From positions 64,170,001 to 64,234,000 of the forward strand of contig OZ024741.1 in NCBI GenBank assembly GCA_964016885.1: a stretch of 64,000 bases of DNA, written 5' to 3'. Both the position numbers and the translations under genes were made by a program. Shown here one piece after another: positions 10,594 through 61,480 of this stretch. This DNA comes from Eledone cirrhosa (taxonomy: Eukaryota). Position 1 is the first letter of the stretch; the number at the start of each line of letters is the position of its first letter. Under the pieces are notes generated by a model. The model was not told where the DNA came from and ran no database searches. It saw nothing but the letters and a program-made list of their open reading frames with translations.

Positions 10594-10639
10594 ATTAGCC
10601 GACAATGTTTCGTCCTATTAAGGACTCATCAGGGCAATT
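10594..10639 (-). ncRNA. Type I hammerhead ribozyme, canonical core
   Basis: Minus strand: gcc CTGATGA gtcc-ttaata-ggac GAAA cattg TC ggc; GUC cleavage triplet. Confidence 0.9.
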
Positions 10640-12385
10640 AAAACAACAAGAAGTAATATCGGCAGATACAAGCCGGAAGCTCCGAAGAATATGGAGTGTA
10701 CATACACTGAAGTATTACAAAAATATATAATAAAAATATATGATAATAATTACCAATATAGTCCAAAGCAAAAACTAGAGCTAAACAAAGGTGGTTATAT
10801 AGAGCAGGAATTTTATATAATACAATATAACATACTATAATATACCTTTACCAACATTAAAATTAAAAATTACAATAAAAATCAAAAGATACAATATGCA
10901 TATGTATATATGTGCGCACACGTACACACACATACACATACAACAATACACACATCCATCTTCCACTGCACAAATTAAACCTTATTAAGAATTTGAATAT
11001 AAAAATAAGCATGATAGGAATGAAAATAATAATAATAATAATACTAATACATCTACCCAATATACATGAGGTAATAATATGATATAATTATAAGTAACAC
11101 ATATAATAATAAATAATACAATTATATACTATATAATACAATATAATAGAATAGATAATCTCCGGTTAATTTACACAAACAATATAGATGTCACAATAAT
11201 AATATAATAATAATAACATTTACAATATACAATATACTAACATTTATCAATGTACTCAAGTTAACAAATCGATTCATATTGGGTTACAGAGTAGGTGAGG
11301 AAAAATAAATTGTACAATACCTCAAAAAACTTATGATGGTACAGAAGTAGAAACATCATACATGATATATAAAGTTTAACATATAATGTTACATATAATT
11401 AACGGTAAGTAATAAGGATCAATATTACAATAAAAAATACAATATAATATAATATATTATATAAAATAAATTAATACAATATAATATATAATTACTTATA
11501 ACTACAAGGTTGGTAGACAGACATGTATATGGATGATTGAGTAAGTGCCAGACAGTAAATATAATGCACAGTAGTATTACAAATAAAATATAAAATATAA
11601 AATATAGAATAAAATAAATAAATAGAATCAACCGGAAATTAAAAAACAAAAACAAACGTATACATTTAGGTTTCACATGCAGTTAAGTAGTTAAGTAAAA
11701 GCTAAGGAAACAACCCCTGTAAATGACTCGAAAACCCTATTTGATAAATTAATATTAAAAATATTTAAACTATCCAATAAGGCAGTATAATATTGGCTAT
11801 AGTTTAAGTCATTAAAGTTTATAAACGTTAATATTTCGTTCCAAATGTTTACAAAAAGGAATGAAAATTGTTTATTATCATATACATAACGATATCCAAA
11901 GAACTGACTTAAGCAGAATTAAGGTAGGCTAATAGGGATAGAAATGAAGAAATGTATGGAGGATGCAAAGGGGCATAAAATATAGTCGATATACTATATT
12001 ACATAATAGAAAGGAGTGTAAAAGAGGGGGGTTAAAAAAAATATAATATAATCATAGTCAATTTGGAGGGGTTGACAATAAGTTTATGTGCGCATGGGGG
12101 GTGAAGGGGGGGGGGGGTCCAAAGAAGAATCCGAATAAAGATAAAAATAAAAATAAGAATAAGAATAAGAATAAAATAAATAAATAGCATAAAATATATA
12201 ATCTTATATACATTCGTAAGGTGTAACAGTGAAAATTTAATGCGTAAGAAGATAGATGTGGTACAGTAGCCAAAAGATTATGAGATCTAGAATGAAGAGT
12301 CATCAAAATCCAATTATAATAATGATGATAATAATAATGTTGGTAAACAAAAGGACCTAAACTAAAAACTAAATAATGGAATATA

Positions 12386-14491
12386 TCAGCTAATGGGTAC
12401 AATTTGTACTACTAGAACGTTTAGGTTTATAATAAAAGTATGAATTAGAAATAGCATGGGGCAAGAAGAGAATATCTCAGACTTTCTATTAAGTAAAGAT
12501 GCGCTAGAGAAGATTATAGAGTGTGTCTCGAGGATACAGAGATTACAAAACTTAGTATGTGTAGAAAGGTGGTTAGAGCGTGCTACTAAACGCCAGTTAA
12601 GGCTATATGGTATATTAGCTATCTTAAGATCCCAGACATAATGTGCTAAAGAAGTAGAATTCTTAAACTTAACATGCTTGAAATTAGAGATATGAGAGTT
12701 AAACCTAGTCTTAAAAGTGTTAGATGTAGAGCCTATATAAGTTCTATTAGAGGAATTAGTTATAACTTCGCAAGCATAGACAATGTTCTTAGAAAGGCAG
12801 TTACCGTTTAAAGGGCAATTAGCACTCACTCTACAATTGCACTTCCGGGTGTTATTGGTTGACTCAAGTGGTGATACATTACACGTAGGATTGCTATTAG
12901 ATAAGGACTGTCCTGGTGGTAATGCATTGCCAGATCTGTTCAGACTAGTAGTATGTAGAGAGGAGAATCCATCCCTAATTTTCCTATTGTTAGTGCTAGC
13001 TAAATGAGAACTAATATTAGGGGTGGTAGAGAATGAAAGTTTAATAACATTTTTATTAAAAATACTATGGTATTTATGAGAAGGGGGGAAATTTTTCTCT
13101 AAGATAGAGAAGAAAGACCTAGGGATATTAGTTGATACTTCCTGATTATATGGCGGGTTAAAATAAGTGTTTAATCGCCTTATATTTTTATTCTTACCGA
13201 CTCTACCATTATCGAGTATCCCACCATCGAGACTAGGGTTACTACAAGGATTAGTTAAAGCCGCATTCATAGAATCAGCCAAAATTTCATTAAGTCTATT
13301 ACAGTTTCTACCTCCAGTAGATCTGCTGCTGTCCGGAATCCCATCATAAGGATCAGGGCCAATGATAGGATCAGTAGGAGCAACATTATCAGAATAAGAT
13401 CCAGCTAAATTATCACCAATGTGTGAGCGCTCAGGGGGTTCAACTTGTTTCCTAGAGGTATTATATTCACTATTACGGGTTCGGTGGGTTAACTTATGGG
13501 TGGGTTCAGATACACCTATATAAATTCTACAGTTACTATGTTTGCTACTCACATTCATGGCCATGTTATGTGATATTATGTTATTATTATTAAAGGTAGA
13601 CGGAGACTTTCTAAAGTTACTATTATTATAATGTATTTTACTAGAGTAACCTGAATTTGCTAGGGCATTATTATAGTACTCCGCATGTTCATTAAATGTT
13701 CCTACGTCCTTAGAGAGTGTGGAAATCCTATTAGATACACCCTTAATTATAGAGCTTATCATAGACTTGGGGTGGTTAGAATTGGGACTAACATAAGAAA
13801 GTATTTCATTAGGCTTATGGAAGGGTTTAAAACTATTAGTGACCAAGTCCAAAGTCACATCTAAAAAGTTAACCGCTCTATCATTTCTATCTATCGTGAT
13901 CGAAAGGTTATAGCTTTTAAAAAACTTATAAAGCTTCTTCTTATTATGTTCTACATTGTTGGTGCTAGAGTTAATTACAAACAATGCATCATCACGATAT
14001 AGTCCGCCTATAAGGTGCGGGAAGGTAGCATATAGTTCATTAAGGAGGAACAACCCAACAAGATCAGTAACCTGGGCCGAATCACTCGAACCCATTGTAA
14101 CGTCGAAATTGTTGGGCGTGTTTTTACGGGTCCAAAATGTGTCCTCAAATTTAATAATAGTTTTACGGGCTGCTAGTATAATATCTACCTGTGATCGTGT
14201 AAGGCTGGACACTCTCATGGCCAACATTAAAGCTTTATTGAGGAGGACGGGTGAAATTGATGTGTAGTAGGCATCAATATCGAATTGGATAAACTTATCA
14301 GATTCAAGTCTATTAATCCCGGAGAACCAATCTATAACTTCCTTAGTGTTCCCCCATAGGTTAAAATTAACCTTATCCCTAACATCTGGTATAATAAGGT
14401 CAAGGATTTTTTTACTGATAATGGCTATATCAGACTTAGAAGGACAGATGAGTCTAACAGAGGGGTTACTAATAAAATCAACCTTATGATC
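12386..14491 (-). CDS. PLE reverse transcriptase / GIY-YIG endonuclease, 5'-truncated
   Basis: Frame is open upstream of 14227 (DHK..P.VRLICPSKS, QFDIDAYY); FDVTMGS, GLYRDD, NFLDVT, CNCR...CPLNG.CL, NIVY..YIGST..FKTR. Confidence 0.88.
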   Translation of the reverse strand, partial: DHKVDFISNPSVRLICPSKSDIAIISKKILDLIIPDVRDKVNFNLWGNTKEVIDWFSGINRLESDKFIQFDIDAYYTSISPVLLNKALMLAMRVSSLTRSQVDIILAARKTIIKFEDTFWTRKNTPNNFDVTMGSSDSAQVTDLVGLFLLNELYATFPHLIGGLYRDDALFVINSSTNNVEHNKKKLYKFFKSYNLSITIDRNDRAVNFLDVTLDLVTNSFKPFHKPNEILSYVSPNSNHPKSMISSIIKGVSNRISTLSKDVGTFNEHAEYYNNALANSGYSSKIHYNNSNFRKSPSTFNNNNIISHNMAMNVSSKHSNCRIYIGVSEPTHKLTHRTRNSEYNTSRKQVEPPERSHIGDNLAGSYSDNVAPTDPIIGPDPYDGIPDSSRSTGGRNCNRLNEILADSMNAALTNPCSNPSLDGGILDNGRVGKNKNIRRLNTYFNPPYNQEVSTNIPRSFFSILEKNFPPSHKYHSIFNKNVIKLSFSTTPNISSHLASTNNRKIRDGFSSLHTTSLNRSGNALPPGQSLSNSNPTCNVSPLESTNNTRKCNCRVSANCPLNGNCLSKNIVYACEVITNSSNRTYIGSTSNTFKTRFNSHISNFKHVKFKNSTSLAHYVWDLKIANIPYSLNWRLVARSNHLSTHTKFCNLCILETHSIIFSSASLLNRKSEIFSSCPMLFLIHTFIINLNVLVVQIVPIS

Positions 14492-59991: not shown

Positions 59992-60030
59992 TGAACCTGA
60001 AGATTGCGAAAGCATGAAAGTACTTGTTTA
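59992..60030 (+). ncRNA. Minimal type I hammerhead
   Basis: tgaac CTGAAGA ttgcgaaagcat GAAA gtac TT gttta; palindromic stem III. Confidence 0.82.
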
Positions 60031-61435
60031 ATTAACACTTAACATTTAATATTCTATCATACTATTTCATTATGATACCATTATAAATTTTAAAGGATTG
60101 TAAATAAAGCTAGTAAATCAGACAAAGTTGGAATTCTTCTTATTAATATATATATATATATATATATATATATATATATATATATATATATATATATATA
60201 TATGTGTGTGTGTGTGTGTGTGTGTGTGTGTGTGTGTGTGTGTGTGTGTGTGTGTGTGTGTGTGTGTGTGTGTGTGTGTGTGTGTTCTATCTGTCCTCTC
60301 TGTCAGGTTTTAACTTGTAACCCATTGTAACATCCGATCCTGTAAATATAATGTCGAACAAATCATCCGCACCGCCGCCACCACCACCACCAAACACATC
60401 GCCATACGTCCACCATCCCTCATTCACAACCTTGTTTTCCCCGTGTTCCCTATGTCATTTTTTAACCTGTATTCCATCGTAAAATTCGATCCTGTAAATA
60501 TCATGTCGCATCCACCACCACCACCACCGCCACCAGGCACATCGCCATCCTTCCACAACTATCAACATCACCAACACATATCATCCCTCCCTAAACAACG
60601 CATGTGTGTGTGTCTGTGTAAGTATATTCGTACAACGCCATTTCCACTGGCTCTCTCTCTCTATATATATATATACACATGAGTATGTATACAACGTATT
60701 TGTCAGACTAAGTGTGTCTATGTATGTATCTCCTTATGGAAATGACACCACGAACACAATCATCACACCACCATAAACACTGCAACCTTTCATCTTTATC
60801 AAAAACAACACCACACCCACACCACCATCCACTTCAACCTGCGACCGTCACCACCAACTTATCAACCCCCCCCCTACACACACACACATACACATACACT
60901 ACAGGTAAAAACATCCCTATGAATTAATCCACCAATCAAAACAAACTTTAATGACCACCATAGGAACGTCTGACTTTATCATACAGCATGTATTCATTTT
61001 TCTATTAACATTACAAGGGGTCTGACGAACCGCGGTTTACAGAGTCGGGTCAGATCGATACAGATCGAACCTTGAGCTGATCAGTGGAGATACGCGCATC
61101 ACCAACCAATAAACGTAATGAAGGAGTAACCAATCGTCCTTGTTATCTTATTTCACTTTGCTCTACGATTCTTATATATTTGATATATATTTATCCTTAT
61201 CGAGCCATCTTTGGATTTTAGTCTTCAAATTTATTATTATTACTATATATATATATATATATATATATATATATTGTTATACTTTGGGAGGGTCATGTTG
61301 CCAATAAGAAACACACGCACCAGTTACTTTCACTTCAATTTATTATATATTTTATATTTATAAATTTATAAATTTATAAATTTATAAATTTCTGGTTGGT
61401 TGGTTGGTTCCACAACCAGATAGTTGTTTATATAT

Positions 61436-61480
61436 AGTCATAGTTCTTTCGTCACACACTCTGTGACCTCTTCAGTGACT
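61436..61480 (-). ncRNA. Minimal type I hammerhead
   Basis: agtca CTGAAGA ggtcac..gtgac GAAA gaac TA tgact. Confidence 0.8.

What the first reader, a model, noticed from the sequence alone, without database searches (positions are those of the whole stretch)
10594..61480. Hammerhead ribozyme hot zone: about 27 motifs from at least a dozen families in 64 kb
Seen: manually folded type-I motifs (stem I, CUGANGA, stem II, GAAA, short often palindromic stem III, UH) at the listed coordinates, nearly all near a (TA)n-abutting 3' end. Stem III palindromes differ by family (tgcgca, ctaattag, caattg, gtac, catg). Known: PLEs carry minimal HHRs thought to cleave as dimers via palindromic stem III. Inference: family-specific palindromes act as dimerisation codes, and the genome may hold a very large number of ribozymes.
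Basis: partly seen in the sequence, partly recalled or inferred. Interest (0 to 1): 0.75.

Follow-up and report, generated by a model that had tools for sequence, protein, structure and literature searches.

The report
Hammerhead-rich Penelope retroelement graveyard
The window holds 28 hammerhead-shaped RNA motifs at the ends of Penelope-type jumping genes, in a genome with over 200,000 such motifs; they are predicted to cut RNA in pairs, but their palindromes are shared between families, so this is a known system at unusual abundance, not a family code.

Summary
I count 28 type-I hammerhead motifs at 10594-61480: 15 intact canonical (0 in shuffles), 5 family-wide core variants, 8 damaged. They fall into about 15 families and 20 insertions; 26 of 28 lie within 250 nt upstream of (TA)n. 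They are 3' ends of Penelope-like elements (Hydra clade, plus a Neptune/Nematis-type group) and of short non-coding retrozyme-like repeats. The zone is only mildly hot: 15 versus 5.7 expected (P=0.024). Three whole-genome patterns give 211,903 matches (830 in controls); sampling suggests about 270,000. Stem III self-complementarity is real (central pair in 31 of 33 families) and fits published dimer cleavage. The code idea is not supported: unrelated families share palindromes more often than chance, one abundant class is not palindromic, and predicted partner choice owes more to stem I. Most copies have no same-strand partner. Side result: a Hydra-clade family has 17,335 exact copies with a U4A core and a conserved fold. 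No cleavage or expression was tested. The scan raised the code idea earlier on other DNA and reached the same verdict.

The parts
10594..10638 (-). Type-I hammerhead, stem III CATTG, in the 3' end of a Hydra-clade PLE that ends at (TA)n 10414-10447
12386..14491 (-). 5'-truncated Hydra-clade PLE ORF, 701 aa: RT (YRDD), CxCx5C linker, GIY-YIG, CxxC..E..N
   Evidence: motifs compared with Craig 2021
16849..16918 (+). Hammerhead, stem III TGCGCA (same family as 23257/25180, about 80% identical)
17782..17857 (+). U4A-core hammerhead with extended stem I and hairpin stem III; 3' end of a Hydra-clade PLE family
18800..19903 (.). One retrozyme-like insertion: 523-bp non-coding unit, partial tandem and inverted copy; three CTAATTAG hammerheads (cores 19048-, 19249+, 19772+)
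20146..20190 (-). Hammerhead with non-palindromic stem III GGAC; short copy of the family at 61475
20281..22858 (.). PLE of Neptune/Nematis type (ORF 20797-21999 minus, CX4CxxC linker, GIY-YIG-type EN) with inverted copy; two damaged hammerheads (cores 20527-, 22612+)
23155..25282 (.). Hydra-clade PLE 3' part (ORF 24257-25120 minus) with inverted 170-bp copy; two TGCGCA hammerheads (cores 23257-, 25180+)
25604..25648 (-). Hammerhead, stem III CATTG, weak stem I
27374..27498 (+). Hammerhead with about 100-nt stem II, stem III CAATTG
35295..36141 (.). One retrozyme-like insertion, 316-bp unit with inverted copy; U3-A8 covariant cores at 35469- and 35933+, 3' half at 35627+; family has a long tandem array elsewhere
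36141..37243 (.). Inverted pair with 14-nt stem III; core 37008+ intact, 36350- with altered stem I
40372..41009 (+). Diverged relative (76%) of the 523-bp element; hammerhead at 40871 with an A6U core change, stem III CTAATTAG
42563..42646 (+). Damaged hammerhead (U4C core, long stem II, stem III CAATTG); read by eye
42945..44122 (.). U4A-family insertion: 3' UTR plus adjacent inverted copy; cores 43017- and 43963+
45248..45326 (-). Damaged hammerhead (internal duplication, stem I lost)
45999..46050 (-). Hammerhead, stem III TATGTA
47071..47234 (.). Hammerhead with U4C core (47225-), stem III TATATA, plus inverted 3' half at 47071+
59756..60150 (.). Inverted pair of minimal hammerheads, stem III GTAC (cores 59909-, 59997+)
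61017..61097 (+). Damaged hammerhead (GAAA box mutated, long stem II)
61244..62762 (-). PLE of Neptune/Nematis type (frameshifted RT-thumb/GIY-YIG ORF 61681-62762) with hammerhead 61436-61480, stem III GAAC; inverted RT copy runs off the window

Best explanation
The motifs are type-I hammerheads at the 3' ends (pseudo-LTRs) of Penelope-like retrotransposons and of short non-coding repeats likely moved by them, piled up as mostly truncated insertions at (TA)n, and in tandem transcripts most would cut RNA as dimers through a self-complementary stem III. Shown: motifs, ORFs, insertion geometry, counts. Inferred: because copying starts near the 3' end and is usually cut short, nearly every insertion keeps the ribozyme; inverted and tandem copies multiply it; TA-rich targets made by earlier insertions attract more. 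Partner choice is predicted to be mostly self-family, but as a by-product of cis-tandem geometry and of divergence in both stem I and stem III, not a selected palindrome code. Most genomic copies lack a same-strand partner and are likely inert.
For: GIY-YIG/RT ORFs lie upstream on the same strand for four motif families in the window and for the U4A family at other loci. Hydra motifs match Craig 2021 section 11 and Hydra-1_Obim by eye. Inverted and partial-tandem geometry matches the described PLE insertion form. 26 of 28 motifs lie just upstream of (TA)n. Central stem III pair complementary in 31 of 33 families, about 19.5 expected from the descriptor alone. Stem III is predicted unstable as a monomer in 42 of 48 families and stable as a dimer in 48 of 48. 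Natural U3-A8 covariants occur. Palindromes are shared between unrelated families above null. Of 138 background hits only 21 have a same-strand same-family partner within 4 kb. 211,903 whole-genome pattern matches versus 830 controls.
Against: No cleavage or expression was tested. Heterodimers are predicted to be disfavoured by both stems in 965 of 1109 cross-superfamily pairs, and by stem III alone in 24, so palindromes do add discrimination; TGCGCA and TATGTA families share nearly the same stem I and differ by compensatory changes in stem III. Sharing of palindromes may partly reflect ancestry that short-range BLAST missed, and my null used even base-pair frequencies. Clade calls rest on motifs, not a tree. 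Published PLE hammerheads cleave weakly in vitro, and one needs protein and is dispensable for insertion.
Confidence: 0.87

Rival explanations
1. Stem III palindromes are a selected family code that stops co-resident families from cleaving each other.
For: Stem III is nearly fixed within most families. Most heterodimers are predicted unstable; stem III loss has a median of 11.2 kcal/mol. Related families with almost the same stem I differ in palindrome (TGCGCA versus TATGTA).
Against: Identical palindromes in 8 and compatible ones in 47 of 927 cross-superfamily pairs, above both nulls. TRYRYA is used by many families (111,601 matches). GAAC/GGAC families are not palindromic. Stem I discriminates more (median 15.3 kcal/mol; sole discriminator in 107 pairs versus 24). 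The TGCGCA x TATGTA heterodimer is predicted as stable as the weaker homodimer.
Confidence: 0.08
2. The fold is kept as a structural signal for the PLE protein (binding or start of reverse transcription), and cleavage is secondary or absent in several families.
For: A family with a U4A core reached 17,335 exact copies versus 79 with U4 and keeps the fold region invariant (0 of 51 polymorphic columns versus 32 of 217 upstream, p=0.0012). In the Anolis Poseidon element, catalytic mutants still support insertion in vitro and cleavage needs protein (passages).
Against: Most families keep all catalytic nucleotides, and U3-A8 covariation preserves a catalytic-core pair across many families. This rival is compatible with the main explanation for origin and differs only on function.
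Confidence: 0.2
3. The window is a special host locus where ribozymes are concentrated or used by the host.
For: 15 canonical motifs versus 5.7 expected (P=0.024); 21 versus 7.7 with variants (P=0.007); 11.4 kb of the window is LINE sequence without any.
Against: At P=0.024 roughly 1,100 of about 47,000 64-kb windows would be as dense. The flanking 200 kb hold 17, the genome average. Single 10-kb samples reach 7-8 hits. Motifs lie on both strands, and 8 of 28 are damaged.
Confidence: 0.04
4. Chance matches in AT-rich, repetitive DNA.
For: No Rfam hit reaches the gathering score. Isolated motifs fold no better than shuffles in several cases. A few relaxed hits are chance (3728, 13839, 23809, 46162).
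Against: 14-15 hits versus 0 in shuffles; 106 versus 0-2 in 1.19 Mb; 211,903 versus 830 genome-wide; fixed position in PLE ends.
Confidence: 0.01

Closest known systems
Minimal and short-palindromic-helix-III type-I hammerheads in pLTRs of metazoan PLEs (Cervera and de la Pena 2014, PMC4209133, parts 1-2 of 4 read; Lunse et al. 2017, not held, seen only as cited in passages of review PMC6765202)
   Same: Type-I topology, position in PLE ends, palindromic helix III, many families per genome, mostly solo or opposite-strand copies, U3-A8 covariant core, frequent extra base before stem II.
   Different: Far more copies (over 2e5 versus about 9,000 in Xenopus and 4,000 in coelacanth, by other descriptors); stem III from 2 to 18 nt; stem II up to about 100 nt; an abundant U4A-core family.
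Hydra clade of PLEs, including Hydra-1_Obim of Octopus bimaculoides (Craig et al. 2021, PMC8557442; sections 11-12, passages and supplement rows read)
   Same: C-terminal GIY-YIG, CxCx5C linker, CxxC and CxH around E and N, YRDD, (TA)n targets, canonical hammerhead near the 3' end with palindromic stem III.
   Different: The paper lists one octopus Hydra family; here many diverged families occur, some with long low-complexity 3' UTRs. No tree was built.
Animal non-LTR retrozymes (Cervera and de la Pena 2020, PMC7229834, passages; Li, Clavereau and Pollet 2026, bioRxiv 10.64898/2026.07.22.740005, parts 1-2 of 5)
   Same: Non-coding tandem units of about 310-520 bp, low GC, one type-I hammerhead per unit, long arrays elsewhere; PLE origin already proposed.
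   Different: Insertions here show PLE-type inverted and partial-tandem ends. Circular RNA is not shown. Axolotl holds about 120,000 motifs in about 28 Gb (about 4 per Mb) versus at least 71 per Mb here.
Poseidon element PAc of Anolis (Frangieh et al. 2024, PMC11167929, passages)
   Same: Hammerhead in the pLTR; tail extensions at insertion ends (two alternative 3' ends in the U4A family).
   Different: Different clade; activity was tested there and not here.

Membership tests
Type-I hammerhead ribozyme | CUGANGA, GAAA and UH boxes in type-I order with stems I-III | tested here: met
   15 intact motifs versus 0 in shuffles; 8 further motifs are damaged
Type-I hammerhead ribozyme | Rfam Hammerhead_1 or clan match at gathering score | tested here: not met
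   None at gathering; best 31.7 of 34 bits and HH9 28 of 52 bits (150 of 268 rows shown)
Type-I hammerhead ribozyme | Self-cleavage after UH | not testable with these tools
   No assay; no RNA run
Dimer-type PLE hammerhead | Short self-complementary stem III, unstable in a monomer | tested here: met
   Central pair in 31 of 33; monomer stem III unfavourable in 42 of 48 families. Exceptions: GAAC/GGAC class and long-hairpin families
EN+ Penelope-like element | RT plus C-terminal GIY-YIG ORF upstream of the motif | tested here: met
   Four window ORFs; U4A family at other loci. Not shown for the other families
EN+ Penelope-like element | 5' truncation, partial tandem, adjacent inverted copy, tail | tested here: met
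Hydra clade | CxCx5C linker; CxxC and CxH around E and N; (TA)n target | tested here: met
   ORFs 12386-14491 (last H replaced) and 24257-25120; U4A-family ORF pieces (against 37, 81)
Hydra clade | DKT and RWK motifs; RT phylogeny | not tested
   N-terminus missing in window copies; no tree built
Neptune or Nematis clade (ORFs 20797, 61681) | CX2-5CxxC linker before a C-terminal GIY-YIG | tested here: inconclusive
   Linker present, but it does not separate the two clades
Non-LTR retrozyme (523-bp and 316-bp units) | Non-coding tandem units with one type-I hammerhead each | tested here: met
   Longest Met-ORF 77 and 28 aa; circular fold 2.5 and 5 SD below shuffles; array
Non-LTR retrozyme (523-bp and 316-bp units) | Expressed as circular RNA | not testable with these tools
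   Not searched for these units
Family-specific dimerisation code (proposed) | Palindromes unique to families and less shared than chance | tested here: not met
   More shared than null; class-wide sharing

The most novel reading that the evidence does not exclude
This octopod-like genome is the most hammerhead-dense animal genome described (70-120 per Mb), and one of its most successful Hydra-clade families runs on a natural U4A core with a monomer-type stem III: a ribozyme throttled in its core instead of by dimer dependence, or rescued by the element's protein.
Probability: 0.35. Interest if true: 0.55.

Novelty: new member of a known kind. Interest (0 to 1): 0.38.

Why it matters
The system is published, so the window itself is ordinary for this genome. 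What adds value is scale and variety. At least 2e5 motifs, invisible to Rfam thresholds, give a large natural library of hammerhead variants (U3-A8, U4A, stem III of 2-18 nt, stem II up to 100 nt). That makes the open question of what PLE hammerheads do testable: whether cleavage is needed, whether protein rescues weak cores, and whether families cross-cleave. Any host cost of this many intronic motifs is likely limited by dimer dependence, since most copies have no partner (inference).

Tried and rejected
Rfam at gathering thresholds: nothing. A first strict descriptor found only 3 motifs and was too narrow. Relaxed cores G3-C8, A3-U8, C3-A8, U4G, G5x, A9x were at or near shuffle level in the window and background; hits at 3728, 6405, 13839, 23809, 41273, 46162, 47211 were treated as chance. 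CUGANGA boxes at 3474, 15205, 27256, 41046, 42167, 42428 and inside the LINEs gave no type-I fold. A general scan for scrambled strand orders found none in the window; it is a weak test because it demands non-overlapping stems of 4/4/3 bp. RNA search for the U4A stretch: no RNA holder listed; contigs of three unlabelled runs were laid and show presence only. Lunse et al. 2017 is not held; it may contain heterodimer data I could not see. Paper searches for hammerhead with octopus or cephalopod, hammerhead with U4A (0 papers) and heterodimer with stem III and Penelope listed no paper whose title or abstract reports an octopod census, a natural U4A core or a palindrome code; the library lacks most subscription journals, and bioRxiv supplements are closed. 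23 of 71 clusters were dropped as probable chance or low-complexity hits before the family statistics.
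Full report
Observation. A type-I descriptor (stem I, CUGANGA, stem II, GAAA, stem III, UH, stem I) found 14 motifs with intact boxes; 80 block-wise dinucleotide shuffles and the reversed window gave 0. Allowing longer stems II and III gave 15 at score >=9 versus 0 in 20 shuffles, plus 3 U4A-core and 1 clear U3-A8-core motif. Family homology and reading of the sequence bring the list to 28 whole motifs between 10594 and 61480: 15 intact canonical, 5 family-wide variants, 4 with broken stems, 4 with one core change, plus about 10 3' halves. 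Self-BLAST shows that many are inverted or tandem copies of one insertion; by my grouping there are about 20 insertions from about 15 families. 26 of 28 have (TA)4+ within 250 nt downstream versus 23% of random positions. Rfam reports none at gathering thresholds and two sub-threshold hammerhead hits among the 150 of 268 rows shown.

What carries them. Four motif families sit downstream of GIY-YIG ORFs on the same strand. ORFs 12386-14491 and 24257-25120 have the CxCx5C linker and CxxC..E..N..CxH pattern that Craig et al. 2021 (PMC8557442, section 11 read) give for the Hydra clade, and resemble Hydra-1_Obim in their supplement by eye; that entry already lists a hammerhead with palindromic stem III. 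ORFs 20797 and 61681 have a CX4CxxC linker (Neptune/Nematis type; not resolved). The 523-bp and 316-bp units are non-coding, fold well as circles and show tandem plus inverted geometry; the 316-bp family has a long array elsewhere. These fit animal non-LTR retrozymes (PMC7229834, passages; bioRxiv 2026.07.22.740005, parts 1-2). The only named relatives of the Hydra ORF among 120 listed were from Argonauta hians, so the host is likely an octopod (inference; earlier scan notes say the same).

Is the zone hot? The genome is 3.0 Gb. In 119 evenly spaced 10-kb samples (1,189,400 bases) the same descriptor found 106 canonical motifs versus 0, 2 and 2 in shuffles, giving 267,000 genome-wide (bootstrap 186,000-350,000), or about 360,000 with U3-A8, U4A and U4C cores. 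The window has 15 versus 5.7 expected (P=0.024); the flanking 200 kb have 17. Direct whole-genome patterns, which do not test stems I and II, gave 61,761, 111,601 and 38,541 matches against 332, 262 and 236 for reversed controls: 211,903 in all, about 71 per Mb. Published figures that I saw, made with other descriptors, are about 9,000 (Xenopus), 4,000 (coelacanth), 120,000 (axolotl) and 235 Rfam hits (giant squid).

Dimer geometry. Clustering window, flank and background hits gave 71 clusters; 23 were dropped as probable chance. Among 33 families with even 4-10-nt stem III, the central two bases are complementary in 31, versus about 19.5 expected from sequences that merely pass the descriptor (expectation is my sum of the printed rates). 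That pair cannot form in a monomer. Stem III is predicted unfavourable as a hairpin in 42 of 48 families and favourable as a duplex in all 48. This agrees with the published dimer model (PMC4209133; review PMC6765202 citing Lunse et al. 2017; the latter paper itself not seen).

The code. A selected code should make palindromes less shared than chance. They are more shared: 8 identical and 47 cross-compatible pairs among 927 cross-superfamily pairs, against 2.4-3.9 and 14-23 in two nulls. TRYRYA alone spans many stem-II families; CTAG, CAGCTG and CATTG recur; GAAC/GGAC families have a purine-purine centre. In a dimer, stem I is also intermolecular (established model). Predicted heterodimer losses have medians of 15.3 kcal/mol for stem I and 11.2 for stem III; of 1109 pairs both stems discriminate in 965, stem I alone in 107, stem III alone in 24, neither in 13, and 19 heterodimers come within 2 kcal/mol of the weaker homodimer. 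So self-preference is predicted, as a by-product of divergence. Caveats: hidden ancestry, even-frequency nulls and nearest-neighbour energies on isolated helices. In the window only 19249/19772 and the 35627-half/35933 pair are same-strand neighbours within one insertion; in background 21 of 138 hits have such a partner within 4 kb, 37 only an inverted one and 80 none (10-kb edges undercount partners). Most copies are therefore likely inert.

Side result. Three window motifs have core CAGAAGA (U4A). An exact 33-nt pattern occurs 17,335 times with A4 and 79 times with U4. Longer copies carry Hydra-type ORF remnants upstream. In 66 alignments from background, flank and upstream-selected loci, the 51-nt motif has no polymorphic column versus 32 of 217 upstream (p=0.0012), although conservation could reflect protein binding or priming rather than cutting, and the hammerhead fold is 2.8 kcal/mol above the predicted minimum. 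Its stem III is a hairpin, not a palindrome. Perreault et al. 2011 (section 8 and passages) report natural U3-A8, A6C and U4C variants; U4A did not occur in the text searched, and a library search found no paper. Frangieh et al. 2024 (passages) show that a PLE hammerhead needs protein and is dispensable for insertion in vitro, which would allow such a core.

Earlier scan notes raised the same code idea on another piece of this genome and in another genome with the same verdict, and pointed me to Hydra-1_Obim and the 2026 preprint, which I then checked. They are not counted as support.

Verdict. Real, well above chance, and a known system: PLE and retrozyme hammerheads in a genome unusually full of them. 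Hot zone weakly supported, code not supported, activity untested. Interest 0.38.

Noticed in passing
window 17782-17857, 42972-43022, 43958-44008; genome-wide: Hydra-clade family with a fixed U4A core (17,335 exact copies versus 79 with U4), extended bulged stem I, hairpin stem III and two alternative 3' ends about 25 and 120 nt past the cut site.
   Followed up: partly
window 18072-18202 and 25424-25480; L027, L049, L063: Another very abundant (TA)n-inserted family (about 40 hits in 1.19 Mb), seen in the window only as 3' halves; longer copies show a U3-A8 core, a long stem II and a 17-nt stem III. My descriptor missed it, so the counts are lower bounds.
   Followed up: partly
G000:C2:207.68-207.74 Mb; C1:1.24, 5.39 and 5.74 Mb: Long head-to-tail arrays of 310-, 466- and 484-bp hammerhead units, often with an inverted block; candidate circular-RNA sources.
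   Followed up: no
window 48151-59511: Two tandem LINE copies (APE endonuclease, RT, zf-RVT; 82% identical over 4.3 kb) with no hammerhead motif.
   Followed up: no
window 38156-40010: PIF1-like helicase ORF fragment, likely a Helitron remnant.
   Followed up: no
window 41560-42330: GC-rich element with an internal 66-bp repeat and a lone CUGAGGA box at 42167 minus that forms no type-I fold.
   Followed up: no
window 4514-5694, 34580-35025, 45527-45857: Further inverted-repeat insertions around (TA)n in which no hammerhead was detected.
   Followed up: no
window 1601-1648: Degenerate U3-A8-family motif outside the reported range.
   Followed up: no
window 36993-37061 and L135, L151: In the 14-nt stem III family, inversion junctions fall inside the ribozyme itself, giving back-to-back cores 12-14 nt apart.
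   Followed up: no
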